NCBI GenBank assembly: GCA_049508935.1
Contig: JBELAJ010000001.1
Span: 6,002 to 70,001, forward strand
Source: Terriglobia bacterium
GTDB lineage: Bacteria > Acidobacteriota > Terriglobia > UBA7540
DNA: 64,000 nt
Direction of reading: 5' to 3'
This document shows positions 4,264 through 44,728 of the stretch, in pieces. Numbering within the stretch: position 1 is the first letter of the stretch; each line of letters starts with the position of its first letter. The translations under genes and the position numbers were made by a program. Under the pieces are notes generated by a model. The model saw only the letters and a program-made list of their open reading frames with translations, ran no database searches and was not told where the DNA came from.

Positions 4264-5485
4264 CGATAGCATCCCTTTTCTGGATCTTGTTACGCCACAT
4301 CAACAGTTAAAGGACGAGTTGCTCAAAGTTGTCGAGCAGGCCCTGGAAACGGCTGGCTTCATCGGCGGTCCAATGGTGGCCGGTTTTGAGCAGGAATTCA
4401 GCCGCTTCTGCGGCACTCCGTATTGTGTAGGGGTCGGGAGCGGCACGGACGCCGTACGGTTCGCACTCATTGCCGCGGGCGTTAAACCCGGCGATGTCGT
4501 GGTCACCGTGCCGAACACCTTTATCGCCACGGCCGAAGCCATAACGCAGGCAGGCGCCACGCCCGACTTCGTCGACGTCGATGAGCGCACGTACAACATG
4601 GACCCTGAACAACTTCTCAAATACCTTCAGGTTCAGTGCCGCGTGGACGGAAACACCGGCCGCGTTTACAACCGCCGGCTCGGGAAACCGGTCACGGCGG
4701 TCGTGCCCGTCCACCTCTACGGTCAACCCGCGGATATGGATCGCATCGCGGACATCGCCGATCGCTTCGGCTTGTTGGTGGTGGAAGACGCCTGCCAGGC
4801 GCACGGGGCGGAGTACTATTCGCGGAAAGAAATGGCCTGGAAAAAGGCCGGGACGATGGGTAAGGCGGCCGCTTTCAGCTTTTATCCCGGCAAGAACCTG
4901 GGAGCCTGCGGTGAGGCCGGGGCGGTCACGACCAGCGACGACGAGATTGCCCGCAAGGTTCGAATGCTCCGCGATCACGGCCAATCGCGAAAATACTTTC
5001 ACGACCTCGAGGGTTACAACGGCAGGCTGGATTCGATTCAAGCTGGGATCTTGCAAGTGAAACTCCGGCACCTTGCCGAGTGGAACGAGAAACGGCGCGC
5101 GGTGGCAGCTCGCTATCGGGAATTGTTCGAGGCCGCCGGTGTGGAGAAATTGATTCTCCCCTTCGAGCCGAGTTGGGCAAGAAGCGTCTACCACTTGTAT
5201 GTCGTCCGGGTATCGAACCGGGACGCGTTGCTCAGCCGCCTCGCCGCTGTCGGCGTCGGTACCGGCATCCACTATCCGATTCCTCTCCACCGTCAGAAGG
5301 CCTACCGGTCGTTCGGCTACGAGACGGTTGTTCTCTCGAACGCCGAGGGGCTTGCTTCTGAAATCCTATCGCTTCCGATGTTTCCTAATCTCACGTTGCA
5401 GCAGCAAGAGCGCGTGGTTAATGAAATCAGGAAATTTACACTCGCAGGAGAGGCCCTTGAAGCGCAAAACGTGTTTACCGTCTGA
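4256..5485 (+). CDS. DegT/DnrJ/EryC1/StrS-family PLP-dependent sugar aminotransferase (WbpE/WlbC-like)
   Basis: IPFLDL...FEQEF..FCG, GSGTDA, VPNTFIATAEAI, VPVHLYG and SFYPGKNLGA (PLP-lysine region). The ORF-track start at 4082 lies inside the previous gene, so I trimmed to the in-frame GTG at 4256 (VNSDSIPFLD). Confidence 0.85.
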   Translation: MNSDSIPFLDLVTPHQQLKDELLKVVEQALETAGFIGGPMVAGFEQEFSRFCGTPYCVGVGSGTDAVRFALIAAGVKPGDVVVTVPNTFIATAEAITQAGATPDFVDVDERTYNMDPEQLLKYLQVQCRVDGNTGRVYNRRLGKPVTAVVPVHLYGQPADMDRIADIADRFGLLVVEDACQAHGAEYYSRKEMAWKKAGTMGKAAAFSFYPGKNLGACGEAGAVTTSDDEIARKVRMLRDHGQSRKYFHDLEGYNGRLDSIQAGILQVKLRHLAEWNEKRRAVAARYRELFEAAGVEKLILPFEPSWARSVYHLYVVRVSNRDALLSRLAAVGVGTGIHYPIPLHRQKAYRSFGYETVVLSNAEGLASEILSLPMFPNLTLQQQERVVNEIRKFTLAGEALEAQNVFTV

Positions 5486-9086: not shown

Positions 9087-9189
9087 TTGCGCCCTGGAAT
9101 GCGTGTCTTGCGTCGCTTGGAAAGACGTGGAAGCAGATACGGCGCTGTCCGGGTTCCTCAAAAAGCTTGTTCTTGAAGATTCGGAGCTA

Positions 9190-10773: not shown

Positions 10774-11654
10774 AAGTGGTCGTAGTGGGCAGCAATGGCC
10801 AATTGGGGAGCGACGTCGTGCGCGCTTTCGCGGACAATGGGGATGAAGTCCTGCCGCTGACGCACGCCGACATCGAGATCGCAGATGGAGAGTCTGTCAC
10901 GAATAAATTGCGCGCGCTGGAGCCCAGCCTCGTGGTGAATACCGCAGCGATGCACCACGTGGAGAACTGTGAATTGCAACCTGAGAGAGCATTCGCCGTC
11001 AATGCCTTAGGTGCGAGAAACCTCGCCCGGGCAGCGCGGGAAATCGGCGCCACGCTCGTCCATGTCAGCACGGATTACGTCTTTGACGGGTCTAAGGTCA
11101 GCCCCTATGACGAGGGTGATCCGCCCCGGCCCTTGAGCGTCTACGGTAACACGAAACTCGCCGGAGAGTACTTTGTGCGCGCTACACTCGACCAGCATTT
11201 TGTGCTGCGCACCTCGGCGATTTACGGGAAAAGCCACTGTCGGGCCAAGAGCGGACTGAACTTCATCCAACTGATGCTCAAGCTGGCGAAAGAGCGGGGC
11301 GAAGTCCGCGTGGTCGACAGCGAATTCGTGACCCCTACAGCCACCCCCGATCTGGCGCGGCAAATAGTTGCGCTGAGCCGCTGCGAGAATTACGGGTTAT
11401 ACCACGCCACCGCCGAAGGAGCCTGCTCCTGGTTCGAATTCGCCCGCGAGATCTTTGCCTTGACCAACACCAAAGTTACTCTGAAGGTTGCGGGGCCGGA
11501 TGAATTTCCCGCCAAAGTGCCGAGACCGAAGTATTCGGTACTGGAAAACCGCGGACTCAAGCGTTTGGGCATCAATACCTTCGCGCCTTGGCAGGAGGGT
11601 CTGCGCGACTACCTCGGCGTTTCGCCGTCGCATACGGCGGCGGTAACCAGATGA
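10770..11654 (+). CDS. rfbD: dTDP-4-dehydrorhamnose reductase-like (RmlD family)
   Basis: MKVVVVGSNGQLGSD, VVNTAAMHHVENCELQPERAFAVNA, LVHVSTDYVFDG and SVYGNTKLAGE. ATGA overlap with the upstream stop; trimmed from the ORF-track start at 10671. Confidence 0.8.
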   Translation: MKVVVVGSNGQLGSDVVRAFADNGDEVLPLTHADIEIADGESVTNKLRALEPSLVVNTAAMHHVENCELQPERAFAVNALGARNLARAAREIGATLVHVSTDYVFDGSKVSPYDEGDPPRPLSVYGNTKLAGEYFVRATLDQHFVLRTSAIYGKSHCRAKSGLNFIQLMLKLAKERGEVRVVDSEFVTPTATPDLARQIVALSRCENYGLYHATAEGACSWFEFAREIFALTNTKVTLKVAGPDEFPAKVPRPKYSVLENRGLKRLGINTFAPWQEGLRDYLGVSPSHTAAVTR

Positions 11655-12514
11655 TGCAATACGTAATCATCACGCCCGTGCGGGATGAAGAAGAGCATGT
11701 GCAAGCAACCATCGAATCCATCACCGCCCAAACTGTGCGACCGGCGGAATGGGTGATAGTCGACGACGGCTCCACCGACCGAACCGGCGCCATCACCGAT
11801 CGCTCTTCAGCCCAGTTTCCCTGGATCCGCGTCATCCACAGACCGAACCGAGGTTTTCGTAAGGCGGGCGGCGGCGTCGTGGATGCTTTTAATGAGGGAT
11901 ACAATTCCCTGCGCTGCAGCGACTGGGATTTCTTAGTCAAACTCGACGGAGATCTCAGCTTTTCCCCCGATTACTTTGAACGGTGCTTCGAGAAATTCCG
12001 GACGCAGCCTGATTTGGGGATTGGGGGCGGAGAAATCTGGCACAATTCGGGCGGCATGCTCAAACTCGAGGCCGGTCCCAGATTCCACGTACGCGGGGCT
12101 ACCAAGATTTACAGAAGGGCTTGCTGGGAAGCGCTAGGCGGGTTAATGCCGGCAGCCGGATGGGACACCATCGACGAGGTTAAAGCTAACATGCTGGGCT
12201 GGAAGACCCGCAGCTTTGAGGATCTCCGGCTCATCCATCATCGCCTCACGGGAGCGGCGGACGGCCTCCTGCACGACCGCATGAAGTACGGTTTGGTTTG
12301 CTTTACCTGCGGGTACCATCCTCTCTTTGTTCTCGCCCGTTGCGTCTATAGGGTGACTCGAAAGCCGTATGTGGTTGGCTCACTCGCGATGCTTTTTGGC
12401 TATCTGAAAGGTTATTTTACCGATACGCCGCAGGTGAATGACGAACGGGTGGTTCGTTACCTGCGGACACAACAATTGAAACGTCTCTTCGGCCTAAGAA
12501 CCGTTTGGCGGTAA
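11651..12514 (+). CDS. glycosyltransferase family 2
   Basis: YVIITPVRDEEEHV..ITAQTVRPAEWVIVDDGSTDRTG and a KLDGD motif. ATGA overlap with rfbD. Confidence 0.8.
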   Translation: MMQYVIITPVRDEEEHVQATIESITAQTVRPAEWVIVDDGSTDRTGAITDRSSAQFPWIRVIHRPNRGFRKAGGGVVDAFNEGYNSLRCSDWDFLVKLDGDLSFSPDYFERCFEKFRTQPDLGIGGGEIWHNSGGMLKLEAGPRFHVRGATKIYRRACWEALGGLMPAAGWDTIDEVKANMLGWKTRSFEDLRLIHHRLTGAADGLLHDRMKYGLVCFTCGYHPLFVLARCVYRVTRKPYVVGSLAMLFGYLKGYFTDTPQVNDERVVRYLRTQQLKRLFGLRTVWR

Positions 12515-12547: not shown

Positions 12548-14518
12548 ATGTGCGGAATCTGCGGCAAGCTTAATTTCGAGCAGAACTCGAGCGTCAGCCC
12601 TGCCCTGGTTCGCGAGATGTTGGACACCATTCGTCATCGGGGTCCCGATGATGAAGGGGTCTACTCGGCGGGGCAGGTCGGCTTGGGGCACCGCAGGCTC
12701 TCGATTATAGACCTGAACACGGGGCATCAACCCCTGTCAAATGAGGATGGCACGGTTTGGATCGTCTTCAACGGGGAAATTTACAATTACCAGGAATTGC
12801 GCCCATGGCTCTTGAACAAGGGTCACAGGTTCGCAACCCAGACCGACACCGAAGTCATTGTCCATTTGTATGAGGAATTGGGGCCCGAGTGCCTGCAGAA
12901 ACTGCGCGGCATGTTTGCCTTTGCCATATGGGATGAGAAATCCAAGACTCTATTCCTGGCAAGAGACCGGGTGGGAATCAAGCCTCTCTACTATTGCCTG
13001 ACGGAGAGATCGCTGGTCTTCGCGTCTGAGATCAAGGCGATCCTGGCGGATCCCAATGTCGATCGAGCCATTTCCCCCCAGATCATCGACAGATTCCTTA
13101 CTTTCTATTATTTGCCGGGGGAAGAAACGCTTTTCAAAGGCATCTCAAAGCTTGCTCCGGGATCCTACCTGGTCGTAAAGAATGGTCGTGCGGAAATTCG
13201 CCAGTACTGGGACCTTAGCTTCTCTAAGCCCGGCGAAAAGCCGAGCCCCATAGAGGCAGAGGGACAATTAGTTGAATTGTTGGCCGAGACCGTTCGACAG
13301 CATATGATCGCAGACGTTCCGGTCGGCGTTTTGTTAAGCGGTGGAGTGGATTCTACGGCCGTGCTCAGCTTCGCTGTGGAACGGACAGACAAGAAGGTCA
13401 GCACCTATACCGTGGGCTTCTCTGACCCTGGGTTCGCCGACGAGAGACCCTATGCCAAGTTAGCGGCTGACACCTTCCACACCCAGCACCATGACATGAC
13501 CATATCGGCGGCCGACTTTGCCGCTTTTATGCCGCGATATGTGTGGCACATGGAAGAACCGGTTTGTGAGCCACCCGCCATCGCCTTGTATTATGTTTCG
13601 AAGCTGGCGAGGCAGTACGTCAAGGTACTTCTTTCAGGGGAAGGGGGCGATGAGGCTTTTGCGGGTTACAGCAACTATCGCAACATTCTCTGGCTCGAGC
13701 GAGCGAAAAGTGGCCTGTATCCGCTGGTAGGGCTGCTTGCACGAGGACTTTCGCTGACCAACTCGGTGTTCCAATCGTCGCGCATCGCTAAATATGTACC
13801 TTTGATGACGGCGATGTTCCCTGACTACTACTACAGCCGCACTTCAAATCCTTACCGCTCCGTCCGCAACGGACTGGGCGATTTGTACTCCAGTGATTTC
13901 GCCCGGTCAATTGACCCGGAGTACAGTCTTGAGCCGGTACGTCGACTGCAGGCGCATGTGCGAGGCCAAAATACCCTCGATGCAATGCTTTACATCGACA
14001 CCAAGACTTGGCTGCCGGACGACCTACTGATCAAAGCCGACAAGATGACCATGGCCAATTCGCTTGAGCTCCGGGTGCCCCTGCTTGATCACAAAGTTCT
14101 TGAGTTCGCGGCTGCCTTACTCCCGAACCTCAAGGTTCGCCGATTCACCACCAAATATCTCGCCAAGAGAGCATTGGGACGCCGGGTCCCCAAGCCCATT
14201 CTTGATCGTCGTAAGGCTGGCTTTCCCGTTCCCTACGAGTCATGGCTCCGGAACGACCTGCGAAACTGGGTTCAGGAAGTGTTGTTCGACCCGACGACTA
14301 CAAGCCGGGGCTATTTCGCCGTTCCCGCTCTGCGCAAGTTGCTGGCCCGCGACGAGTCTATAGGGGGATTTTCCAAGGAGATTTTCTCGTTGGTTACGCT
14401 CGAGCTCTGGCACAGGACTTTTCTCGGCCAGAAACAGGTTCTGCCAACAGCGTCTCTGCAGCCGGCATCGGCTAGCGCGCAACAGCCGCGTCAGCCAGAG
14501 CACTCTCAGCGTGGATAA
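12548..14518 (+). CDS. asparagine synthase (glutamine-hydrolysing)-family amidotransferase, AsnB/WbpS-like
   Basis: Begins MCGI (catalytic Cys2). HRGPDDEG, HRRLSIIDL, FNGEIYNY, and the PP-loop LLSGGVDS. Confidence 0.9.
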   Translation: MCGICGKLNFEQNSSVSPALVREMLDTIRHRGPDDEGVYSAGQVGLGHRRLSIIDLNTGHQPLSNEDGTVWIVFNGEIYNYQELRPWLLNKGHRFATQTDTEVIVHLYEELGPECLQKLRGMFAFAIWDEKSKTLFLARDRVGIKPLYYCLTERSLVFASEIKAILADPNVDRAISPQIIDRFLTFYYLPGEETLFKGISKLAPGSYLVVKNGRAEIRQYWDLSFSKPGEKPSPIEAEGQLVELLAETVRQHMIADVPVGVLLSGGVDSTAVLSFAVERTDKKVSTYTVGFSDPGFADERPYAKLAADTFHTQHHDMTISAADFAAFMPRYVWHMEEPVCEPPAIALYYVSKLARQYVKVLLSGEGGDEAFAGYSNYRNILWLERAKSGLYPLVGLLARGLSLTNSVFQSSRIAKYVPLMTAMFPDYYYSRTSNPYRSVRNGLGDLYSSDFARSIDPEYSLEPVRRLQAHVRGQNTLDAMLYIDTKTWLPDDLLIKADKMTMANSLELRVPLLDHKVLEFAAALLPNLKVRRFTTKYLAKRALGRRVPKPILDRRKAGFPVPYESWLRNDLRNWVQEVLFDPTTTSRGYFAVPALRKLLARDESIGGFSKEIFSLVTLELWHRTFLGQKQVLPTASLQPASASAQQPRQPEHSQRG

Positions 14519-14523
14519 CGAGT

Positions 14524-15789
14524 TTGTTTACCAACAACCAACAGAGTAGCCGCAGTCGACAGAGCGCGCTCAATCTGGCCGCGAAGACGCTCTGGCGCAT
14601 GCCAGGCCGTTTCGGGATTGCGCGTCTCTTCGGTCCTTGTTACTCTTTGCGGTGCGTTGTCTTTCATGACATTTCAGCGACGGAGTCGCCGTTTACCAAG
14701 GGAATGCGGGTGAGCATCACGCCCGCGGAGTTCGGGGCGGCGCTGAAATTTCTCACCCGATACTACACTCCTGTCCGCTTCGAGGACGTTCTGGCTGCTT
14801 CTGGAGGCCGTAGTCTGCCGCCAAGACCGCTGCTCGTGACCTTCGACGACGGCTATGCGTCGATGATGGAGTGGGCCGCACCGCTGTGCCGCAAGTATGG
14901 CGTGCCTGCCATCTTTTTCCTCAATGCAGCGTTTCTCGATAATGAGAGACTAGCGCCGGACAATCTCATTTGTTACGCGGCCAACGTTCTGGGATTGGAA
15001 GCCATAAACGCTGCCGCGCGCAGCGTAGGGGACGACGAAGTCCCCAAGCTAGAGTCTCTGGCTGAGGTCTTCTCGCGTTTCCTCCCCGCGATTTCGTTGG
15101 CCGACAGGCAAGTCTTTCTCGACGCCTTGGGTCATTTGGGAAGATTCGATGAGCGTCGATTAGCACGGGAAGCGTGCTTATACCTGACTCGAAAACAGGT
15201 TTGCGAGTTGGCAGCTTCGGATTTCGAGATCGGGAGCCACAGTTATTCCCATGTCCGTTGCCGGTCGTTAGCAAGCGCGGATTTTGAGGAGGAAATTGAC
15301 AGAAACAAGGCAGAGCTGGAGGCTCTATCTAGGAAGAAGGTACGGTCATTCAGCTTGCCCTACGGTTCCTCTGCGGACCTCTCAAGTGACTTGCAGCGAA
15401 AGCTTCAGGCTTCAGGGCACGAAGTGGTCTTCCTAAGCGAGAGCGTTGCCAACCCGTGCGCGATGGGATGCCTCCGTTTTGACCGAGTAAGCATCCAAGC
15501 CAGCGGAAACGACGCTTTGTTCTTTGAGATCGAGGTTTTGCCGCGCCTTCGCGCCGTCAGGAATCGTCTTTTCCGGGACCCTGGCGCCGTTCGGATGGCC
15601 CGTAACGAGGCTTCACGGGCTGGGTTGGGAACGCGGCGCGGGGAAAATGAAGTCGCAGCGCTTGACGAGATGAAGCATATGTATGATCATTCAAATTGCA
15701 GAGATAAAGTGACAGCCAGAGAGGTGGGCGGAAATTCCGGGGATTCCCGGCCTGATGCGCTAAGGTCTTCCGGTAAAAGACTCCAATGA
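14524..15789 (+). CDS. polysaccharide deacetylase (NodB/CE4 family)
   Basis: LLVTFDDGYASMMEWAAPLCRKYGVPAIFFLN, and GSHSYSHV as the His-containing motif. The start is uncertain (TTG at 14524 or ATG at 14599). A low-complexity C-terminal tail overlaps the ACP start (ATGA). Confidence 0.8.
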   Translation: MFTNNQQSSRSRQSALNLAAKTLWRMPGRFGIARLFGPCYSLRCVVFHDISATESPFTKGMRVSITPAEFGAALKFLTRYYTPVRFEDVLAASGGRSLPPRPLLVTFDDGYASMMEWAAPLCRKYGVPAIFFLNAAFLDNERLAPDNLICYAANVLGLEAINAAARSVGDDEVPKLESLAEVFSRFLPAISLADRQVFLDALGHLGRFDERRLAREACLYLTRKQVCELAASDFEIGSHSYSHVRCRSLASADFEEEIDRNKAELEALSRKKVRSFSLPYGSSADLSSDLQRKLQASGHEVVFLSESVANPCAMGCLRFDRVSIQASGNDALFFEIEVLPRLRAVRNRLFRDPGAVRMARNEASRAGLGTRRGENEVAALDEMKHMYDHSNCRDKVTAREVGGNSGDSRPDALRSSGKRLQ

Positions 15790-16052
15790 CTCGGGACAAA
15801 TTTCTTCTGGAGATGGATGAGATTCTGGGCCTACCGTCTGGAACGCTTCGCGGCCACGAAAAACTCGAGGAGTTGGAGACCTGGGACTCCATTGCACTCA
15901 TCAACTTGATTGTATTAGCAGAAACACAAAATAACGCACCAATAACCCCTGACCAGGTCGTAACCTGCTCTACGGTGTCTGATCTTCTTCGTCTGGCTGG
16001 CTTCGAAGATAACCCTGTTGTTCCCGAGTCCGGGTCGGACCATTTAGCGTAA
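15786..16052 (+). CDS. acyl carrier protein-like
   Basis: 88 aa. LEELETWDSIALINLIV gives a helix II context for a phosphopantetheine-attachment Ser. Confidence 0.7.
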   Translation: MTRDKFLLEMDEILGLPSGTLRGHEKLEELETWDSIALINLIVLAETQNNAPITPDQVVTCSTVSDLLRLAGFEDNPVVPESGSDHLA

Positions 16053-16160
16053 TGCATGCCATTGCCCTGAAGAGGGCAGCGTCGCGCAGAATAGCGGCGA
16101 GACGTCGACATCGACTGGCCCCAACGACAGCTTGCGGCTGCTAGGCTCTAGAGTTTCCTA

Positions 16161-18005
16161 ATGGTGGCGGAGACTGAGACATTGCAATGGGAGGTTCCGA
16201 AAGCTCTGCGGTTCCCCGTCGCGCTGGAGGAGGTCCTTCTGAAGCGCCTGAGCCTGAAGAAGGAGCTGCTCAAGCAACCGAATCTCGTCTCAACGCGCAT
16301 TGCAATTCTTGGCGGATCAACGACTACGGAAGTAATGAGCATGCTCGAGCTGTTTCTCCTGGCCCAAGGGATCCAGCCAACCTTCTACGAATCAGGGTAC
16401 AACCGTTACTGCGAGGACGTGCTGTTCGAGAATCCTGAGTTATGGAATTTCAAGCCCGAGATCGTCTTTATCCACACTACCTGGCACAATGTATCGCAAT
16501 TTCCCGAATTACTGGAAACCGAGGCAGACGTTGGAAAGCGTGTCAGTCGTGAAATGGCGCGGTTTGAATCGCTTTGGGAGAAAATAAACAAGGAGCTAGG
16601 CGCGATCATCATACAGAACAACTTTGACCTCCCACGTCTCAGACCACTGGGGAACTTGGAGGCTTCCGAGCCGTACTGTCGCGTGAACTTCTTGCAGCGG
16701 CTGAATGCCGCATTTGCGGCCTATGCCCGCAACCACCCACGGTTCCTGATTAACGACATCCACTACCTCTCCGCAAAAGTGGGCCTGACGGCGTGGCACG
16801 ACCACACCTATTGGTATAACTTTCACATGGCCTTGAGCCCAACGGCCACCGTGGTGCTGGGTCAAAACGTTGCTGCGATTGTTAGGTCGGTTTACGGGAA
16901 GAGCAAGAAGTGCCTCGTTCTGGACTTGGACAACACACTCTGGGGCGGAGTTATCGGCGACGATGGTGTGCAGGGCCTGATTCTTGGCCGGGATCACCCG
17001 GTCGGTGATGCCTTCGTCGACTTCCAACGGTATGTGAAAGATCTGCAGCGGCGGGGCGTCATTCTTGCAGTCTGCTCGAAGAACGACCCTGAGAACGCCA
17101 AGGAAGGTTTCTCGCACCCGGACAGCGTATTGAAACTGGAAGATTTCAGCGTCTTCAAAGCGAATTGGAACCCAAAGCCTGACAACATCCGCGCTGCCGC
17201 CTTAGAACTCAACATCGGTCTCGATAGCATGGTTTTCGTTGATGATAACCCGGCCGAACGGGCCCTCGTTGCGGCCGAGCTCCCCGAGGTGGCCGTACCC
17301 GATATGGGCTCGGATGTTTCACGATTTGCAGAGACACTCGAACACGAGCGGTACTTCGAAGTGGCCAATGTCGTTCAAGAGGATCTCAGCCGCTCCAGCT
17401 ATTACAGCTCGAATGCCCGGCGAAGCACTTGTCTTAGCGCGTTCCGGGATTACCGAGATTACCTCGCTTCTCTCGAAATGACCGCTGAAATCGGCCCATT
17501 TCTTCCAGTCTACCTGGAGCGAATTACGCAGTTGATTAATAAGACCAACCAGTTCAATCTCACCACCAGGCGATACACGAGCGCCGAGGTTGAGGCCGTC
17601 AGCAAGGACCCGACGTATGTCACCCTTTACGGACGGCTGTCCGACAAATTTGGCGACAACGGGTTGGTTTCAGTATTGATCGGGCGAGTTTCTAACGAGA
17701 CAGTCGAATTACACGTTTGGCTAATGAGCTGCCGCGTTGTGAAGCGCGAAATGGAACTCGCCATGTTTGATGCTCTGGTCGAACAGTGCCAGGCCCGAGG
17801 CATCCGAAAGATCCTGGGCACGTATATCCCGTCGAAGAAGAACGGAATGGTTTCGGGCCACTATGCCAGCCTGGGTTTCACGCGCATCGACGGCGCGTCG
17901 GGAGACCGGGAGCTCTGGCAGTACGATGTACCTCAAGCCTATCCCGCGAAAGCGTGTTACATTCGCAGGACCATTCAAGGCAACCCGGCGAGTGTGTCTT
18001 CTTAA
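16161..18005 (+). CDS. FkbH-like HAD-IIIC phosphatase/acyl-loading protein
   Basis: LVLDLDNTLWGGVIGDDG (HAD motif I), AVCSKN, FVDDNP, NKTNQFNLTTRRY, and a conserved Cys context WLMSCRVVKRE in the C-terminal GNAT-like domain. Confidence 0.8.
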   Translation: MVAETETLQWEVPKALRFPVALEEVLLKRLSLKKELLKQPNLVSTRIAILGGSTTTEVMSMLELFLLAQGIQPTFYESGYNRYCEDVLFENPELWNFKPEIVFIHTTWHNVSQFPELLETEADVGKRVSREMARFESLWEKINKELGAIIIQNNFDLPRLRPLGNLEASEPYCRVNFLQRLNAAFAAYARNHPRFLINDIHYLSAKVGLTAWHDHTYWYNFHMALSPTATVVLGQNVAAIVRSVYGKSKKCLVLDLDNTLWGGVIGDDGVQGLILGRDHPVGDAFVDFQRYVKDLQRRGVILAVCSKNDPENAKEGFSHPDSVLKLEDFSVFKANWNPKPDNIRAAALELNIGLDSMVFVDDNPAERALVAAELPEVAVPDMGSDVSRFAETLEHERYFEVANVVQEDLSRSSYYSSNARRSTCLSAFRDYRDYLASLEMTAEIGPFLPVYLERITQLINKTNQFNLTTRRYTSAEVEAVSKDPTYVTLYGRLSDKFGDNGLVSVLIGRVSNETVELHVWLMSCRVVKREMELAMFDALVEQCQARGIRKILGTYIPSKKNGMVSGHYASLGFTRIDGASGDRELWQYDVPQAYPAKACYIRRTIQGNPASVSS

Positions 18006-18036
18006 GAGCTCAGGGAATCCCTTTCCATCAAACTCT

Positions 18037-18477
18037 ATGTTACCTGCAGGACTTTTGCGCACCGGTAGAGCCAGACTGCACCATTTAGGTTACGTGGTGG
18101 CGGCCATTTCGACGGTTGCTGAGGCGTTTGCGGAGTCCATAGCCGCACGTTGGGATGGCCGCATTATCCATGATCCCTTACAGCGGGTTCGAGTGGCCTT
18201 CTTTAAGCCTGTCGAGAAGGGGAATCCGGTATTTGAGTTGGTGGAGCCAGCTTGCGACGCCTCGCCGATAAGCAGATTCCTCAAGAGCGGCGGGGGACTG
18301 CACCACGTCTGTTATGAAATAGACGACTTGGAGTGGGGCCTGAAGGAATTGCGGCGTGCGGGTTTCGTGATGATCTCTCCTCCGAAACCAGCCCCGGCGT
18401 TTGGGGGTCGCCGCATCGCTTGGATTTATTCCAAGAGCCGCGTCTTGATGGAATTGCTGGAGCGGAAGCCGAAATAG
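18037..18477 (+). CDS. VOC-family protein, methylmalonyl-CoA epimerase-like
   Basis: LHHLGYVV, VAFF..G..FELVEP, and GGLHHVCYEIDDL. Trimmed to the ATG at 18037 because the ORF-track start at 17767 lies inside the FkbH-like gene. Confidence 0.7.
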   Translation: MLPAGLLRTGRARLHHLGYVVAAISTVAEAFAESIAARWDGRIIHDPLQRVRVAFFKPVEKGNPVFELVEPACDASPISRFLKSGGGLHHVCYEIDDLEWGLKELRRAGFVMISPPKPAPAFGGRRIAWIYSKSRVLMELLERKPK

Positions 18478-18502
18478 CCGGCCGACACCCCGAGGAAGGA
18501 GT

Positions 18503-19654
18503 TTGCATAAGCACAAAGGTGAGGAAACGGCTTTAAACGCTATGCTCGAATCTGTTTGGCAAGTCGAAGTAGATCGCGCTGCGCAGGCTGAGTGGTCGCA
18601 ACTGCTCGATCTGTTCGATGACGCCAACCTATATCAAACATGGTCGTATGGTGGAGTGCGTTGGGGGGAGAAGAACCTCAGCCACCTGGTTCTGAAACGG
18701 GGTGGCGAGGTCTTGGGGATGGCCCAACTCAGAATCGTCCGCCCCACGAGATTGAAGTTCGGAATGGCGTATCTGCGCTGGGGCCCTCTGTTCCAGCGCC
18801 GCGGCAGGCCCCATGAGCCCGAGGTGGCCCTGAACTTAGCCCGAGCCCTCGAGGAGGAGTACGTCGACAGAAGACAGCTTTTCCTCCGTATCCTGCCAAA
18901 CGCTTTTGCCGGATCGCCACGGGCCGCCATATTTCAGTCCGCCTTTTGCAGATTCGCGAGGGAACCGTTTGTTGCTGACAACACGTACCGGACTTTTGTC
19001 CTGGATCTGGCGCCGGCAGTTGAGGAGTTGCGCAAAAAGCTTGACGCGAAATGGCGAAACCACCTCAAGCGCTCCGAAAAGAACGGCCTTACCGTCGTCG
19101 CGGGAACTGGGAGTGGCGAATACCAGGTTTTCTGCCAACTCTACCATCAGATGCGAAAACGCAAGACATTCGAAACCACTGTGGACGTCGAGGAGTTTGC
19201 GCGAATCCAGGAAGACTTGCCGGAGCCGCATCGCATGCGAATAATGATCTGCCAGGACAAGGGCACCCCCGTTGCGGGACTCGTTACCTCGGCGATGGGA
19301 GATTCCGCGATATATCTGCTCGGCGGGACCAACGAGGAGGGGCTGAAATCGCAAGGCGCCTACCTCTTGCAGTGGACCATGATCAAATGGCTTAAAGAAA
19401 GAGGCATCAGGTGGTACGATCTCGGAGGCATTGATCCGGAACGGAATCCTGGCGTTTATTCCTTCAAGAGAGGGTTTTCCGGGGCCGACCTACGGCAGCT
19501 AAACCCCATGGTGGGCTGCAGCAGCGTGGTGTCGTCCGCAATTGTCAGGACCAGCCTTGCCGTGCAGAGTGCAATCCGGCGCTCGAAAGCCGCCTTGCAG
19601 TTTGCGCGCCCGTTCAAGCAACTCGCAAGCGGCAGTCAAGCACTGTCCGTTTAG
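18503..19654 (+). CDS. FemAB-related / GNAT-fold (CelD-like) acyl- or aminoacyl-transferase
   Basis: YQTWSYGGVRWG..HLVLKRGGEVLGMAQLRIV, WRNHLKRSEKNGL, and GAYLLQWTMIKWLKERGIRWYDLGG. An alternative start is the ATG at 18542. Confidence 0.6.
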   Translation: MHKHKGEETALNAMLESVWQVEVDRAAQAEWSQLLDLFDDANLYQTWSYGGVRWGEKNLSHLVLKRGGEVLGMAQLRIVRPTRLKFGMAYLRWGPLFQRRGRPHEPEVALNLARALEEEYVDRRQLFLRILPNAFAGSPRAAIFQSAFCRFAREPFVADNTYRTFVLDLAPAVEELRKKLDAKWRNHLKRSEKNGLTVVAGTGSGEYQVFCQLYHQMRKRKTFETTVDVEEFARIQEDLPEPHRMRIMICQDKGTPVAGLVTSAMGDSAIYLLGGTNEEGLKSQGAYLLQWTMIKWLKERGIRWYDLGGIDPERNPGVYSFKRGFSGADLRQLNPMVGCSSVVSSAIVRTSLAVQSAIRRSKAALQFARPFKQLASGSQALSV

Positions 19655-19663
19655 TTTACTCCT

Positions 19664-20602
19664 ATGGATATTTCGGTCGTCATCGTCGCCTGGAATGCAA
19701 AGCACTATTTAGAGCTGTGCCTGGAGAGCCTGGAAAAGGCGCCTCCACGCCGGAGTATGGAAACCCTGGTGGTTGACAATGCCTCGACTGACGGCACGTC
19801 AGAAATGGTCGAGGCGCGCTTTCCCTGGGTCAAGCTGATCAAAAGCCCTGAGAATTTAGGCTTCGCGAAAGGCAACAACCTGGCCATCCGGCAGTGCCAG
19901 GGGCGCTACATTGCGCTCGTGAACCCCGACGTGATTGTTTTTCCGGGATGTCTGGACGCCCTCTCGGATTTCCTCGACCAGAATCCCAAGGTAGGGAATG
20001 TCGGTCCGCGCGTCTTTGAACCCGATATGTCGATGCAGAGCACCTGCCGCCGATTTCCGACGCTCTGGAACAACTTTTGTTCGGCCAGCGGGCTGGCGGC
20101 CGGATTCAAGAAATCCCGCTTTTTCGCCGGCGAGCACATGTTCTACTTCCCCCACGACCGGACCCTCGCGGTGGATGTCCTGGTGGGTTGCTTTTCGATG
20201 ATCCGCCGCGAAGCATTCGAATCCGTGGGCTTGTTGGATGAAGGACTGTTCATGTACGGCGACGATGTGGATTGGTGCCGGCGAGCGTGGAAGGCCGGAT
20301 GGGAAGTGGTTTTCTACCCCGGCGCGCGGGCCATTCACGACCGCGGCAAGATTACGGCCCCCTATCCGGTCCGCTTTGCCGTTGCCCAACAGAGATCCAT
20401 TCTCTACTACTGGTCCAAATACCACAGTGCCTTTGGAGTTTTGGGAATCCGGGGCATCCTGCTTTTCCATCACGCTCTTCGCTACACGTTGGCGGTTCTC
20501 TCGGGGCTGGGGCGCCCCAAGACTCGGTCGCAAAGTGAGGACCGGAGACAGATAAGCGCCGCCTGCATACGGGATGTTCTGAGTGCTCCACATAAGGCCT
20601 GA
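19664..20602 (+). CDS. glycosyltransferase family 2 (rhamnosyltransferase-like)
   Basis: ISVVIVAWNAKHYL, VVDNASTDGT, NLGFAKGNN, LVNPD, and YGDDVDWCRRAWKAGW. Confidence 0.85.
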   Translation: MDISVVIVAWNAKHYLELCLESLEKAPPRRSMETLVVDNASTDGTSEMVEARFPWVKLIKSPENLGFAKGNNLAIRQCQGRYIALVNPDVIVFPGCLDALSDFLDQNPKVGNVGPRVFEPDMSMQSTCRRFPTLWNNFCSASGLAAGFKKSRFFAGEHMFYFPHDRTLAVDVLVGCFSMIRREAFESVGLLDEGLFMYGDDVDWCRRAWKAGWEVVFYPGARAIHDRGKITAPYPVRFAVAQQRSILYYWSKYHSAFGVLGIRGILLFHHALRYTLAVLSGLGRPKTRSQSEDRRQISAACIRDVLSAPHKA

Positions 20603-20610
20603 GCTGCAGC

Positions 20611-21312
20611 TTGGCATGGACAGCCATGGGTATTTCGACTTCGATCACACGCCTTTCGGACTTCTACAGGCGCCACGGCTCTTGGGCGACGATCCGGCGC
20701 GCCAGTGTAGCCGCGACACGGGCGCTCTTTTCAAGCCGAAGCGTTTTGTTTTACTGTGATCTAGCCCGGCTGACCACGCCCGTGGCGGCACTCCCGAGCT
20801 TCCTGGAGGTGGAGCGAAAGTCAAACGCTGCCGAACTGAGCGCGGAGGACCTCCAAGAGATGACCGGTTTCTGGAGTCCCAAACTGGTTAATCGGAACAT
20901 GAAGGAGCGATTCGGCAAGAGGGCGTCCTTGTGGTTGATCAAGTCTGCGGGCAGGCTGGCGGGTTACGGTTGGACGTTGTGGGGAAGTACGGTTGAGCCC
21001 CATTACTTCCCCTTGGGCCACGATGATGTGCACCTTTTCGATTTCCACGTCTTCCCGCAATATCGTGGTCGAGGAATGAATCCGCTGCTGGTTACCTATA
21101 TCCTCCAGAGCCTGGCGGCGGAGGGAGCAGGCCGTGCGTTTATTGAAGCTGCGGAGTGGAACCAACCGCAGTTGTCGTCCCTATTCAAGACCCCATTTCG
21201 TTGCCTAGGCAAGGCTTGGAAGTTGACGTTTTTGGGCCGCACCATCGTCTACTACTGGGCGAAGAACGGAACTCTAAGCAAGAGTACTAAAGTAACAGTA
21301 CAAAGGCATTGA
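20611..21312 (+). CDS. GNAT-family N-acetyltransferase
   Basis: HVFPQYRGRGMNPLLVTYIL matches GNAT motif A (Q/R-x-x-G-x-G/A). Start is either TTG at 20611 or ATG at 20626. Confidence 0.6.
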   Translation: MAWTAMGISTSITRLSDFYRRHGSWATIRRASVAATRALFSSRSVLFYCDLARLTTPVAALPSFLEVERKSNAAELSAEDLQEMTGFWSPKLVNRNMKERFGKRASLWLIKSAGRLAGYGWTLWGSTVEPHYFPLGHDDVHLFDFHVFPQYRGRGMNPLLVTYILQSLAAEGAGRAFIEAAEWNQPQLSSLFKTPFRCLGKAWKLTFLGRTIVYYWAKNGTLSKSTKVTVQRH

Positions 21313-36435: not shown

Positions 36436-36452
36436 AGTAGAGATGTGAAGCA

Positions 36453-37505: not shown

Positions 37506-37547
37506 TCCTAGTTGTGTCAACTGTCGCCAGAAAGCGGTGCCAAGCAG

Positions 37548-38831: not shown

Positions 38832-38842
38832 AGGAGGCGAAC

Positions 38843-40308: not shown

Positions 40309-40322
40309 CGGAAGAATCCAAG

Positions 40323-42583: not shown

Positions 42584-42595
42584 CCGGAGAACCTC

Positions 42596-44644: not shown

Positions 44645-44728
44645 GATTGAAGCGTTTTCACCGGCGCGCATTTCCGGTGCCGCTCAGCGTTTCGGCCCTG
44701 CGCCCGGTACAGCAGACGAGAGAGCCAC

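What the first reader, a model, noticed from the sequence alone, without database searches (positions are those of the whole stretch)
12548..19654. AsnB, CE4 deacetylase, ACP, FkbH-like loader, VOC epimerase-like protein and FemAB-like transferase: a candidate module that replaces the acyl group on a sugar amine
Seen: six consecutive genes, two of them overlapping (ATGA at 15786):
- a glutamine amidotransferase (starts MCGI, PP-loop SGGVDS)
- a NodB-type deacetylase
- an 88-aa carrier protein (WDSIA serine)
- a 614-aa FkbH-like protein (DLDNTLWGG HAD motif plus the MSCRV cysteine)
- a methylmalonyl-CoA-epimerase-like VOC protein
- a FemAB/CelD-like transferase

Established: FkbH-type enzymes dephosphorylate 1,3-bisphosphoglycerate and load a glyceryl unit onto a dedicated ACP (methoxymalonyl-ACP pathways, OzmB). 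From memory, AsnB-like, FemAB-related and deacetylase genes are recurring members of exosortase/PEP-CTERM-type EPS loci, and their chemistry there is still undefined.

Inference: the block could strip an N-acetyl group from an amino sugar and replace it with an ACP-borne C3 hydroxy-acyl group (glyceroyl or lactyl type). The VOC protein would set the C2 stereochemistry and the FemAB-like protein would perform the transfer. AsnB would amidate a carboxylate. No acyl-ACP ligase or PPTase is visible, which fits direct FkbH loading. I know of no characterised polysaccharide-decoration pathway of this kind.
Basis: partly seen in the sequence, partly recalled or inferred. Interest (0 to 1): 0.7.

Follow-up and report, generated by a model that had tools for sequence, protein, structure and literature searches.

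The report
Amino-sugar re-acylation cassette with FkbH/ACP plug-in
A conserved acidobacterial polysaccharide operon pairs a known type of "remove the N-acetyl, put another acyl group on" amino-sugar pathway with an optional module that probably makes a carrier-protein-bound glyceric-acid unit; FkbH-type modules are characterised in antibiotic synthesis, not in sugar polymers.

Summary
All six genes are real and intact, and they sit inside a 64-kb one-strand polysaccharide super-cluster. FkbH passes its curated profile and keeps the HAD aspartates and the SCR cysteine.

There a WbpS-type AsnB, a CE4 deacetylase (VimE) and a FemAB-related VimA convert a 2,3-diacetamido uronic acid into a 2-N-aminoacyl uronamide. 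The window carries the matching C3-amination trio upstream.

In 33 well-covered acidobacterial loci, CE4–FemAB–GT2–GNAT is essentially universal and AsnB is in 30. ACP+FkbH is in only 27 and VOC in 23. Six loci from at least three lineages lack ACP/FkbH, yet their FemAB and GNAT are unchanged.

ACP–FkbH(–VOC, or MaoC–SDR in its place) is therefore an optional donor plug-in. In other phyla the same pair feeds an MBOAT.

The FemAB protein most resembles aminoacyl-tRNA-dependent transferases, so it probably adds an amino acid. Which enzyme takes the ACP-borne C3 hydroxyacyl group is unresolved.

Verdict: observation confirmed, interpretation partly supported, a new variant of a known kind.

The parts
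1492..2679 (+). Initiating polyprenyl-phosphate sugar-phosphate transferase. Marks the start of the glycan assembly operon.
   Evidence: Bac_transf scores 226 bits. TIGR03025 EPS_sugtrans scores 296.7 bits, just above its cut-off.
2756..3760 (+). GFO/IDH/MocA sugar 3-dehydrogenase (WbpB/GnnA-like). First step of C3 amination.
   Evidence: Pfam match. Best NCBIfam hit is UDP-GlcNAc 3-dehydrogenase at 166 bits, below its cut-off. Best PDB hit is 7BVJ.
3757..4263 (+). Hexapeptide-repeat sugar N-acetyltransferase (WbpD/WlbB/QdtC-like).
   Evidence: Hexapep match. PDB hits are 4MZU, 7S3U, 3MQG and QdtC.
4082..5485 (+). DegT-type sugar aminotransferase (WbpE/QdtB-like). The true start is probably downstream of 4082.
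   Evidence: DegT_DnrJ_EryC1 scores 361 bits. PDB hits include QdtB, DesV and WbpE at 240 bits.
11588..12514 (+). GT2 glycosyltransferase immediately upstream of AsnB. Syntenic in related loci.
   Evidence: Pfam match. Conserved in position in the related loci.
12548..14518 (+). Glutamine-dependent AsnB-family amidotransferase, WbpS-like. A probable uronamide- or other carboxamide-forming enzyme.
   Evidence: Family matches. The best-scoring NCBIfam family is TIGR03108 eps_aminotran_1 at 569 bits, below its 817 cut-off. Present in 30 of 33 loci.
14524..15789 (+). Cytoplasmic CE4 (NodB-type) deacetylase, VimE-like in role. It has an insertion inside the domain and a non-conserved C-terminal tail.
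   Evidence: Family matches. Motifs conserved in 42 orthologues. No signal peptide or transmembrane segment. Present in 32 of 33 loci, and L009 has a divergent CE4.
15786..16052 (+). Dedicated acyl carrier protein (Ser in WDSIA). Its start overlaps the deacetylase stop (ATGA).
   Evidence: PP-binding match. Sequence and overlap read directly. Always paired with FkbH.
16161..18005 (+). Long-form FkbH-like loader. Domains: FkbH_N, a HAD-IIIC phosphatase domain, and a C-terminal transferase domain carrying the Cys.
   Evidence: Profile matches. PDB hit 3SLR. Catalytic residues conserved in alignments.
18037..18477 (+). VOC / glyoxalase-I-like protein. An optional tailoring enzyme for the ACP-bound unit.
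   Evidence: Family and PDB matches. Present in 23 of 33 loci with a variable position. Mutually exclusive with MaoC+SDR in 85 loci.
18542..19654 (+). FemAB-family (VimA-like) tandem-GNAT N-acyl/aminoacyl transferase.
   Evidence: Family and PDB matches. Start confirmed by public gene calls. Foldseek top hits are FemX and Sba18/Sbb17. Present in 33 of 33 loci.
19664..20602 (+). GT2 glycosyltransferase that always follows FemAB. Analogous in position to VimF.
   Evidence: Pfam match. Present in 32 of 33 loci.
20626..21312 (+). GNAT N-acyltransferase (SSAT/thialysine-acetyltransferase-like). Universal partner of the core and a candidate acceptor enzyme for the ACP-borne group.
   Evidence: Family and PDB matches. 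Gene call. Present in 33 of 33 loci.

Best explanation
The block is an acidobacterial version of the Wbp/Vim-type amino-sugar remodelling pathway, with an extra acyl-donor module spliced in.

**Core, all cytoplasmic**
- The upstream dehydrogenase, aminotransferase and acetyltransferase trio makes a 3-acetamido (2,3-diacetamido-type) nucleotide sugar.
- The CE4 enzyme removes one N-acetyl group.
- The FemAB-family enzyme re-acylates the freed amine. The donor is most likely an amino acid from aminoacyl-tRNA, as proposed for VimA.
- The WbpS-like AsnB turns a carboxylate into a carboxamide.
- The adjacent GT2 installs the sugar.
- The GNAT caps an amine.

**Plug-in, present in about 80% of loci**
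- FkbH dephosphorylates 1,3-bisphosphoglycerate and loads glyceryl onto its own ACP.
- The VOC protein, or a MaoC–SDR fusion in the same slot, tailors the tethered unit. The products would be an epimerised glyceryl or a lactyl group.
- The C3 hydroxyacyl group is then added to the same remodelled substituent. My preferred acceptor site is the alpha-amine of the newly added amino acid, with the GNAT as transferase.

**What is shown and what is inferred**
Shown: the family assignments, the residue conservation, the synteny, and the separability of the module. Inferred: the substrate identities, the donor used by FemAB, the VOC chemistry, and above all the final transfer step.
For: **Family and residue evidence.**

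**Match to Wbp/Vim.** WbpS, VimE and VimA plus the Wbp trio and a GT (PMC7468200; PMC13086638). VimA itself matches TIGR03019, to which the window protein also gives a weak hit. The C3-amination trio is present upstream. In locus L092 the trio lies five genes upstream of the orthologous CE4–FemAB pair, in the order trio–FrhB-like–GT4–CE4–GT2–CE4–FemAB.

**FemAB relatives.** The closest are the aminoacyl-tRNA-dependent FemX and the amino-sugar-aminoacylating Sba18/Sbb17. The FemX Phe304-Lys305 pair is invariant.

**Core versus plug-in.** FemAB and GNAT are in 33 of 33 loci, CE4 and GT2 in 32, AsnB in 30, ACP+FkbH in 27 and VOC in 23. Module-less loci fall in at least three lineages. Their FemAB and GNAT show no relaxation of conserved columns.

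**The plug-in is a general donor module.** In 85 loci from many phyla the same FkbH–ACP pair sits with an MBOAT. It carries either VOC (17 loci) or MaoC+SDR (19 and 13 loci), never both. L094 has a MaoC–SDR fusion exactly in the VOC slot.

**Glycan precedent.** C. jejuni strains that lack the FkbH-domain gene cj1302 or the 'epimerase' cj1301 lack the dimethylglyceric-acid-pseudaminic acid glycan (PMC7099621).

**Location.** All the enzymes lack signal peptides and transmembrane segments.
Against: - No biochemical or glycan-structure data exist for any member.
- No UDP-GlcNAc 6-dehydrogenase (WbpA) was found in the window, so a uronic-acid substrate for AsnB is not shown.
- The matches to the XrtA/Vim-type equivalog models (TIGR03108, TIGR03006, TIGR03019) are all below their cut-offs.
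- The GNAT, like FemAB, persists unchanged in module-less loci. It is therefore no better supported than FemAB as the ACP-dependent transferase.
- One MAG carries two copies of the locus (L093 and L175). A module-less locus could therefore be served in trans.
Confidence: 0.45

Rival explanations
1. The FemAB-like enzyme takes glyceryl (or its epimer, or lactyl) directly from the ACP and puts it on the de-N-acetylated sugar amine, giving an N-glyceroyl or N-lactyl sugar. No aminoacyl-tRNA is involved.
For: - ACP–FkbH(–VOC) lies immediately upstream of FemAB in about 25 of 27 module-carrying loci, and next to FemAB in the rearranged L009.
- The plug-in carries no transferase of its own, whereas in other phyla an MBOAT fills that role.
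- Glyceroyl is the 2-hydroxy analogue of the seryl group that VimA specifies in P. gingivalis.
- In L176 a second loader–carrier pair is followed by another GNAT-fold (NMT-like) transferase.
- From memory, XrtA loci combine FemAB-family genes with an ACP and an acyl-CoA-ligase-like loader.
Against: - The nearest characterised sequence and structural relatives (FemX, FemA, Sba18/Sbb17, MprF) all use aminoacyl-tRNA.
- FemAB orthologues of 65-75% identity persist in six of 33 loci without ACP/FkbH, in at least three lineages.
- In those loci 114 of the 116 columns conserved in module-carrying loci remain essentially unchanged.
- No alternative loader was found in those loci.
Confidence: 0.25
2. 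The FkbH–ACP(–VOC) module decorates a different position of the repeat unit, for example by O-acylation of a hydroxyl. The transferase would be encoded elsewhere. The module is only a neighbour of the CE4/FemAB chemistry, not part of it.
For: - The module is gained and lost independently of the core.
- In most other phyla the same pair feeds an O-acyltransferase (MBOAT).
- The core enzymes show no sequence response to the presence or absence of the module.
Against: - No MBOAT or Acyl_transf_3 protein was detected among the window ORFs that were scanned.
- The two hexapeptide transferases downstream look like WbbJ-type O-acetyltransferases.
- In three independent gene orders the module always stays within one or two genes of FemAB or GNAT.
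Confidence: 0.2
3. The locus makes a secondary metabolite (a tetronate, or a methoxymalonyl-type polyketide extender unit) rather than a glycan decoration.
For: FkbH and its ACP are hallmark genes of such pathways. The window protein is 34% identical over its full length to a tetronate-cassette FkbH on a Methylosinus plasmid.
Against: - There is no ketosynthase, FabH-like enzyme, PKS, NRPS, or dehydrogenase/O-methyltransferase set of the methoxymalonyl pathway nearby.
- Every neighbour is a glycan-assembly gene.
- The synteny with glycosyltransferases is conserved.
Confidence: 0.02

Closest known systems
Wbp/Vim linking-sugar pathway of Porphyromonas gingivalis and Tannerella forsythia (Veith et al. 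2020, PMC7468200)
   Same: - An AsnB-family amidotransferase whose best-scoring family is the WbpS type.
- A CE4 deacetylase that unmasks a sugar amine.
- A FemAB-related transferase that re-acylates it.
- An adjacent glycosyltransferase.
- An upstream C3 oxidation, transamination and N-acetylation trio.
- All steps are cytoplasmic.
   Different: - ACP, FkbH, VOC and a universal GNAT have no counterpart in the published pathway.
- No WbpA was seen in the window.
- The window proteins fall below the equivalog cut-offs.
- Orthology to VimA and VimE could not be tested, because no Bacteroidota sequences were reachable.
- No T9SS or sortase context is present.
XrtA / PEP-CTERM exopolysaccharide loci (TIGR03108, TIGR03006, TIGR03019 and associated glycosyltransferases)
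   Same: - The AsnB protein and the upstream GT4 (5485-6819) have XrtA/PEP-CTERM models as their best NCBIfam hits, all below cut-off.
- The CE4 and FemAB-like proteins give weaker sub-cut-off hits to XrtA models; their best NCBIfam hits are PgaB and FemX.
- The first ORF of the window gives a weak hit to a PEP-CTERM-associated outer-membrane protein.
- From memory, some XrtA loci also carry an ACP with an acyl-CoA-ligase-type loader.
   Different: - No exosortase gene is in the window.
- All these XrtA/PEP-CTERM model matches are below cut-off.
- The loader here is FkbH, not an adenylating enzyme.
FkbH-type glyceryl-ACP loaders of polyketide pathways (OzmB, FkbH, ZmaN, tetronate FkbH-like enzymes)
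   Same: - The TIGR01686 profile is passed.
- HAD motifs I-IV and the SCR cysteine are conserved.
- A dedicated small ACP lies next door.
- The long form with the FkbH_N domain is shared with the tetronate type.
   Different: - No PKS, FabH-like enzyme or oxidation/methylation partners are present.
- The gene is embedded in a glycan operon.
- The tailoring partner is a VOC protein or a MaoC–SDR fusion.
Campylobacter jejuni flagellin glycosylation island, cj1301/cj1302, and dimethylglyceric-acid-pseudaminic acid
   Same: A glycan carries a glyceric-acid-derived group. Its presence tracks with an FkbH-domain gene and an adjacent 'epimerase' (PMC7099621; PMC3068675).
   Different: - The evidence is a correlation across three strains (11168, 12661, 12664), not biochemistry.
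- The glycan is a nonulosonic acid on a protein, not a polysaccharide repeat.
- No FemAB or CE4 involvement is known.
- Sequence relatedness was not tested here.
NodB/NodA/NodF (Nod factor) and LpxC/LpxD (lipid A); own knowledge
   Same: The same chemical logic: de-N-acetylate an amino sugar, then N-acylate the free amine from an acyl-ACP.
   Different: - The acyltransferase families differ (NodA; the LpxD left-handed beta-helix).
- Those donors are fatty acyl groups made by FAS-type enzymes, not an FkbH-loaded C3 unit.
Dlt-like FkbH–ACP–MBOAT cassettes found here in Clostridia, Bacilli, Synergistales, Proteobacteria and S. meliloti pSymB
   Same: - FkbH-like proteins that are 45-52% identical to the window protein over their full length.
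- An adjacent WDS-motif ACP.
- The same alternative tailoring genes, VOC or MaoC+SDR.
   Different: - The transferase there is a membrane MBOAT with a DHHW/AlgX-like or DltD-like partner, implying extracytoplasmic O-acylation.
- Those loci have no FemAB or GNAT. CE4 and AsnB matches are isolated (one and two loci).
- They are uncharacterised too.

Membership tests
FkbH glyceryl-ACP loader (TIGR01686) | Profile score above the curated cut-off | tested here: met
   286.6 bits against a cut-off of 146.65. HAD-IIIC scores 70.9 against 35.75.
FkbH glyceryl-ACP loader (TIGR01686) | HAD catalytic motifs: DxDxT, Ser/Thr, Lys and DD | tested here: met
   D255, D257, T259, S306, K339, D361 and D362 are invariant. 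The comparison set was the zwittermicin-cluster FkbH (L006), a tetronate-cassette FkbH, and the S. meliloti and Firmicutes homologues.
FkbH glyceryl-ACP loader (TIGR01686) | Acyl-accepting cysteine in the C-terminal domain | tested here: met
   C524, in LMSCRV, aligns with the identical LMSCRV of the zwittermicin-cluster protein. The assignment of that Cys as the acyl site comes from the OzmB mechanism (PMC9057759) and my own knowledge.
FkbH glyceryl-ACP loader (TIGR01686) | Dedicated ACP encoded alongside | tested here: met
   The ACP is adjacent in all 27 module-carrying acidobacterial loci. A WDS-motif ACP is adjacent in 72 of 85 wider loci.
FkbH glyceryl-ACP loader (TIGR01686) | Loading of glyceryl from 1,3-bisphosphoglycerate | not testable with these tools
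   Needs an in vitro assay with intact-protein mass spectrometry.
Polyketide/tetronate use of glyceryl-ACP | A PKS, FabH-like enzyme, or methoxymalonyl tailoring genes nearby | tested here: not met
   None among about 50 window ORFs scanned with Pfam.
Wbp/Vim pathway | CE4 deacetylase with an intact metal/catalytic site next to the FemAB-like gene | tested here: met
   PF01522. TFDD, HSxxH and LPYG are conserved. The pair is adjacent or separated only by the plug-in in 32 of 33 loci.
Wbp/Vim pathway | VimA-type FemAB-related transferase (VimA matches TIGR03019) | tested here: inconclusive
   The window protein hits TIGR03019 at 46 bits against a cut-off of 260, and FemX NF047883 at 64 bits. 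No direct comparison with VimA was possible.
Wbp/Vim pathway | WbpS-type (eps_aminotran_1) amidotransferase | tested here: inconclusive
   TIGR03108 is the best-scoring family at 569 bits, but below its 817 cut-off.
Wbp/Vim pathway | WbpB/E/D-type C3 oxidation, transamination and acetylation genes | tested here: met
   The genes are at 2756-5485. The test is at family level only, and a GnnA-type activity without a uronic acid is not excluded.
Wbp/Vim pathway | WbpA UDP-GlcNAc 6-dehydrogenase supplying the uronic acid | tested here: not met
   No UDP-sugar dehydrogenase domain was found among the window ORFs scanned. One could lie elsewhere in the genome.
XrtA / PEP-CTERM EPS locus | Exosortase gene and equivalog-level hits for the marker families | tested here: not met
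   No exosortase domain is in the window. TIGR03108, TIGR03006, TIGR03019, TIGR04063 and TIGR03016 are all below cut-off.
FemAB family (aminoacyl-tRNA-dependent transferases) | Pfam FemAB above cut-off, tandem-GNAT fold and the catalytic Phe-Lys pair | tested here: met
   PF02388 scores 76.5 bits. Foldseek top hits are FemX, Sba18/Sbb17, FemA and MprF, though the model has a pLDDT of only 68.7. F308 and K309 are invariant and align with the Phe-Lys pair of FemX; that this pair is FemX F304/K305 is from my own knowledge.
FemAB family (aminoacyl-tRNA-dependent transferases) | Use of aminoacyl-tRNA as donor | not testable with these tools
   Only indirect evidence: the orthologues persist unchanged where ACP and FkbH are absent.
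Methylmalonyl-CoA epimerase (TIGR03081) | Equivalog cut-off | tested here: not met
   56 bits against 115. The protein is closer to PDB 2QH0/3HDP, deposited as lactoylglutathione lyase / glyoxalase I (E 1e-18), than to MMCE structures (E 1e-8). VOC fold membership (PF13669) is met.
Dlt-like MBOAT acylation cassette | MBOAT plus a DltD/DHHW-type partner next to the carrier protein | tested here: not met
   Absent from the window and from the acidobacterial loci. Present in 52 of 85 loci from other phyla.

The most novel reading that the evidence does not exclude
The FemAB-family enzyme of these loci takes its acyl group from a carrier protein instead of a tRNA. It would install glyceroyl, the 2-hydroxy analogue of the seryl group used in the P. 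gingivalis linking sugar, on a 2,3-diamino sugar.

This would be the first ACP-dependent Fem-type transferase and the first FkbH-fed N-acylation of a polysaccharide. The resulting sugar could also serve as an anchoring or 'linking' residue in Acidobacteriota.
Probability: 0.2. Interest if true: 0.8.

Novelty: new variant of a known kind. Interest (0 to 1): 0.6.

Why it matters
**For Acidobacteriota.** They are among the most abundant soil bacteria, and their surface polymers are barely characterised chemically. This operon is highly conserved in them: the FkbH proteins are 75-93% identical across Terriglobia, Bryobacteraceae and Acidoferrales. It predicts a specific, testable decoration: an aminoacylated and/or C3-hydroxyacylated diamino sugar carboxamide.

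**For glycobiology more widely.** FkbH/ACP appears here as a general, portable donor module for glycans. It plugs into a Vim-like cytoplasmic pathway in Acidobacteriota and into MBOAT export-side acylation in many other phyla. That would extend FkbH chemistry from polyketides to cell-surface glycobiology. It would also give a handle on the still-undefined ACP sub-cassettes of PEP-CTERM/exosortase loci.

Tried and rejected
**Literature.** Searches for FkbH together with polysaccharide, FemAB, glycan or MBOAT found nothing on such a pathway, apart from the C. jejuni gene-content note. One search was badly framed and returned nothing useful.

**Apparent FkbH–FemAB fusion (P0173).** Inspection shows an internal deletion or frameshift junction, so I did not count it as evidence.

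**A transferase that co-varies with the module.**
- The only co-varying gene is the 537-aa ORF at 21400-23013 (24 of 27 against 1 of 6 loci).
- It is a secreted beta-helix-like protein, not an acyltransferase.
- The same slot in module-less loci holds unrelated proteins of similar character.

**An alternative loader in module-less loci.** None was found. The slot holds a methyltransferase, transposase, Wzy-like protein or DegT instead.

**Specificity-determining or relaxed positions in FemAB or GNAT.** Comparing loci with and without the module gave no signal in either protein, so the test cannot discriminate between them.

**Epsilonproteobacterial locus L015 as a stand-in for C. jejuni.** Its upstream genes are unrelated to glycans.

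**NMT-like protein of L176 against FemAB.** No detectable homology.

**Promoter and terminator scan.** No enrichment, which is consistent with one operon.

**Could not be done.**
- A check of whether module-less genomes hold FkbH elsewhere.
- Any modelling of complexes.

Full report
**1. The observation**

The window is a single + strand polysaccharide super-cluster with a G+C content of about 0.56.

- AsnB, 12548-14518. Asn_synthase scores 328 bits, and TIGR01536 scores 506 bits against a cut-off of 267.
- CE4 deacetylase, 14524-15789. PF01522 scores 70.6 bits.
- Carrier protein, 15786-16052, 88 aa. PP-binding scores 23.1 bits, barely above its cut-off.
- FkbH-like protein, 16161-18005, 614 aa. 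TIGR01686 scores 286.6 bits against 146.65, and FkbH_N also matches.
- VOC protein, with a Glyoxalase_4 match.
- FemAB-like protein. PF02388 scores 76.5 bits, and Acetyltransf_6 also matches.

The quoted motifs are all in the translations, and the ATGA overlap at 15786 is real.

Two coordinates need refining. The VOC gene is 18037-18477 (146 aa). The FemAB gene most likely starts at the ATG at 18542 (370 aa). Public gene calls on the identical JGI metagenome contig agree with both.

None of the six proteins, nor the GNAT, has a signal peptide or a convincing membrane segment. The chemistry is therefore cytoplasmic.

**2. FkbH looks like a working loader**

I aligned the window protein with five homologues:
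- an acidobacterial protein;
- a Firmicutes protein;
- the S. meliloti pSymB protein;
- a Methylosinus FkbH from a tetronate cassette;
- the short FkbH of a Bacillus cereus zwittermicin cluster, which I take to be ZmaN from its gene context.

The HAD residues D255, D257, T259, S306, K339 and D361-D362 are invariant. So is the S523-C524-R525 motif, which reads LMSCRV in both the window protein and the zwittermicin-cluster protein.

The published OzmB mechanism is a phosphoglyceryl-S-enzyme intermediate, dephosphorylation, then transfer to the ACP (PMC9057759). It therefore applies at the level of residues.

The only solved relative is 3SLR, an uncharacterised Bacteroides fragilis protein that covers the N-terminal and HAD domains.

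**3. Surroundings**

Upstream lie:
- an initiating phosphoglycosyl transferase (1492-2679);
- a trio of a GFO-type sugar 3-dehydrogenase, a hexapeptide N-acetyltransferase and a DegT aminotransferase (2756-5485);
- a GT4, an unknown 756-aa protein, RmlC, an epimerase, RmlD and a GT2.

The trio's best solved relatives are 7BVJ for the dehydrogenase; 4MZU, 7S3U, WlbB (3MQG) and QdtC for the acetyltransferase; and QdtB, DesV and WbpE for the aminotransferase. This fits C3 amination and N-acetylation of a nucleotide sugar.

Downstream of FemAB come:
- a GT2 and a GNAT;
- a secreted beta-helix-like protein;
- methyltransferases and more glycosyltransferases;
- a Wzx flippase;
- a second sugar pathway;
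- a Wzm/Wzt exporter.

No MBOAT, exosortase, PKS or UDP-sugar 6-dehydrogenase was detected.

**4.

Veith et al. (PMC7468200) deduced the linking sugar of P. gingivalis as 2-N-seryl-3-N-acetylglucuronamide. In T. forsythia it is the 2-N-glycyl mannuronic acid form. The sugar is made by the Wbp enzymes plus three others.
- WbpS is an AsnB-family member of eps_aminotran_1. Deleting it leaves the acid form.
- VimE is a CE4 enzyme proposed to remove the 2-N-acetyl group.
- VimA matches the pepcterm_femAB family. Swapping the T. forsythia gene into P. gingivalis changes Ser to Gly.

The vimF glycosyltransferase gene lies next to vimE and vimA (PMC13086638).

The same authors noted the vimA-like / deacetylase / asnB / glycosyltransferase arrangement beside exosortase genes in Nitrosomonas, Nitrosococcus and Desulfovibrio.

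Membership is not proven. TIGR03108 is the AsnB protein's best family but scores 569 bits against a cut-off of 817. TIGR03019 and TIGR03006 give only weak hits. No WbpA is in the window.

**5. Conservation and modularity**

The FkbH protein has more than 8000 close homologues. The best 120 are 75-93% identical, and those that carry a source name are named Acidobacteriota lineages (Terriglobia, Bryobacteraceae, Acidiferrales). At 50% clustering the family has 14,660 clusters.

I gathered loci from long contigs, a scan of species-representative genomes, and a metagenome scan seeded with FemAB. I scored them by tblastn with the window proteins.

Among 33 acidobacterial loci covered at least 6.5 kb upstream and 5.6 kb downstream of FemAB:

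| Gene | Loci (of 33) |
|---|---|
| FemAB | 33 |
| GNAT | 33 |
| CE4 | 32 (the remaining locus, L009, has a divergent CE4) |
| GT2 | 32 |
| AsnB | 30 |
| ACP + FkbH | 27 |
| VOC | 23 |

VOC occupies three different positions. In L094 a MaoC-dehydratase/SDR fusion sits exactly between FkbH and FemAB, although a weaker VOC-like match (about 49% identity) also lies downstream of the GNAT in that locus.

In L124 and L138 the order is GNAT–VOC–ACP–FkbH. In L009 it is FemAB–ACP–FkbH–GNAT–CE4.

Six of the 33 well-covered loci (L092, L112, L140, L146, L153, L173) keep (AsnB–)CE4–FemAB–GT2–GNAT with no ACP or FkbH. L108 and L127, which have less flanking sequence, show the same arrangement.
- They fall in at least three separate places in both the FemAB and the GNAT trees.
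- Of the 116 FemAB columns and 39 GNAT columns that are at least 95% conserved in module-carrying loci, only 2 and 1 differ in two or more of the module-less sequences.
- No substitute loader is present.

The six genes are therefore a conserved core (AsnB, CE4, FemAB, plus GT2 and GNAT) with an optional ACP–FkbH–tailoring plug-in.

**6. The plug-in elsewhere**

Full-length homologues of 45-52% identity occur in Clostridia, Bacilli, Synergistales, Methylomonas, Desulfovibrio and others. I clustered their neighbouring ORFs. Of 85 loci:
- 72 have a WDS-motif ACP immediately downstream;
- 52 have an MBOAT;
- 17 have a DHHW/AlgX-like protein;
- 15 have a DltD-like protein;
- 19 have a MaoC dehydratase;
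- 13 have an SDR, always together with MaoC;
- 17 have a VOC protein (this count includes the window's VOC and other acidobacterial loci).

VOC and MaoC never co-occur. S. meliloti pSymB has VOC–MBOAT–x–ACP–FkbH-like beside capsule export genes.

The FkbH–ACP pair is thus a portable donor module with two alternative tailoring options. It is coupled to an MBOAT in most phyla, but to the Vim-like cytoplasmic core in Acidobacteriota.

MaoC plus SDR would convert glyceryl-ACP through an enol-pyruvoyl intermediate to lactyl-ACP. From my own knowledge, FkbH-containing loading modules of trans-AT PKSs do this. The VOC protein would most simply epimerise C2 through an enediolate.

The VOC protein fails the MMCE cut-off. 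It is nearest to PDB 2QH0 and 3HDP, deposited as lactoylglutathione lyase / glyoxalase I. I recall these as a Clostridium enzyme.

One glycan precedent exists. C. jejuni 11168 flagellin carries dimethylglyceric-acid-pseudaminic acid. Strains 12664 (cj1302, the FkbH-domain gene, is a pseudogene) and 12661 (which lacks cj1301, annotated as an epimerase) lack it (PMC7099621; PMC3068675).

**7. Who takes the acyl group from the ACP?**

This step is unresolved.

*The FemAB protein.* By sequence it is nearest to Weissella FemX, and it keeps the FemX Phe-Lys pair as invariant residues. A moderate-confidence model (pLDDT 68.7) matches several aminoacyl-tRNA-dependent enzymes best: FemX, the Sba18/Sbb17 peptide synthases solved with the amino-sugar substrate streptothrisamine, S. 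aureus FemX and FemA, and MprF. Acetyl-CoA tandem GNATs come only after these.

Together with its unchanged persistence in module-less loci, this makes an aminoacyl-tRNA donor the more likely one.

*The GNAT.* It resembles thialysine/diamine N-acetyltransferases. It belongs to a family that uses pantetheine thioesters, and in L009 it directly follows FkbH. However, it too persists unchanged without the module.

*Caveats.*
- One MAG (ERZ25039590) carries two copies of the locus, so supply in trans cannot be excluded.
- In L176 a second AMP-ligase/carrier pair is followed by an NMT-like GNAT-fold protein. Loader–carrier–GNAT-fold cassettes therefore occur in these loci.

*My estimates.*

| Model | Probability |
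|---|---|
| FemAB uses aminoacyl-tRNA, and the C3 unit is added to the same substituent | about 0.45 |
| An unrelated O-acylation by an unidentified transferase | about 0.2 |

**8. Verdict**

- **Observation:** confirmed.
- **Interpretation:** partly supported. The swap-the-N-acyl logic and FkbH loading are reasonable, and the former has a published precedent. The six genes are not one indivisible unit. The VOC protein is optional and is not an MMCE equivalog. The proposed ACP-to-FemAB hand-off is the least supported step.
- **Novelty:** a new variant of a known kind, namely a Wbp/Vim- or XrtA-type core carrying an FkbH/ACP donor plug-in. I found no paper describing FkbH/ACP as a glycan acyl-donor module, with either FemAB or MBOAT partners, in the library searched.
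- **Interest:** about 0.6.

Noticed in passing
Loci L013-L087 (for example L078:5497-7011 MBOAT, L070:2033-3517 DHHW, L037:5806-6228 MaoC, L035:18740-19474 SDR): A widespread Dlt-like cassette that I could not find described: long FkbH-like protein, ACP and MBOAT, plus a DHHW/AlgX-like or DltD-like protein. It occurs in Clostridia, Bacilli, Synergistales, Methylomonas, Desulfovibrio and others. VOC and MaoC+SDR are mutually exclusive tailoring options (0 overlap between 17 and 19 loci). This implies export-side O-glyceroylation or O-lactylation of a surface polymer.
   Followed up: partly
L004 (S. meliloti pSymB, CP140934.1 1027596-1046846): The gene order is VOC, MBOAT, a protein annotated 'TonB-dependent receptor', ACP and a 628-aa FkbH-like 'HAD family hydrolase'. 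The group lies a few kb upstream of the rkp capsule export genes.
   Followed up: no
window 21400-23013: A 537-aa secreted protein with a signal peptide and NxVI-type beta-helix repeats, and no Pfam or NCBIfam hit. It is found in 24 of 27 module-carrying loci but only 1 of 6 module-less loci. There the same slot holds unrelated proteins of similar character. It may be a polymer-specific depolymerase or processing enzyme.
   Followed up: partly
L176:12712-15626: An extra cassette of AMP-binding ligase, PP-binding carrier and an NMT-like GNAT-fold protein, inserted right after the GNAT of an otherwise standard locus. This is a second, adenylation-type carrier module in the same operon.
   Followed up: partly
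L009:4478-5620, 8359-9510, 15715-16938: Three FemAB/Acetyltransf_6 genes in one acidobacterial locus, together with UDP-GlcNAc 2-epimerase, ACP–FkbH–GNAT and a canonical CE4. This suggests stepwise building of a short peptide-like side chain.
   Followed up: no
window 35083-41684: A second sugar-modification block. It holds a DUF4910/DUF2172 aminopeptidase-like protein with a wHTH domain, an epimerase, a C-methyltransferase, a glucose-1-phosphate cytidylyltransferase-like enzyme and a PIG-L deacetylase. It also holds a PRK06209-type 'glutamate-1-semialdehyde aminomutase' at 712 bits, above its cut-off.
   Followed up: no
window 31724-33211 and 41798-46036: The 64-kb cluster encodes both a Wzx-type flippase and a Wzm/Wzt ABC exporter (with a Wzt_C domain). 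A 682-aa apiosidase-like, Ig-domain protein (42596-44644) lies between wzm and wzt. Two glycans or two export routes may be encoded side by side.
   Followed up: no
window 24-1421: The first ORF has one N-terminal hydrophobic segment. Its only hit is weak (25.8 bits, below cut-off), to the PEP-CTERM system-associated outer-membrane protein family TIGR03016. This is a faint link to exosortase-type loci.
   Followed up: no
L093 and L175 (both from ERZ25039590): The same MAG carries two copies of the whole AsnB–CE4–ACP–FkbH–FemAB–GT2–GNAT locus on two large contigs. One copy has many frameshifts. Paralogous loci therefore exist within one genome, which complicates any presence/absence argument.
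   Followed up: partly
window 50127-52634: An 835-aa protein whose only recognisable domain is a spermine/spermidine-synthase-like segment (residues about 309-395). It sits among glycosyltransferases and its function is unclear.
   Followed up: no
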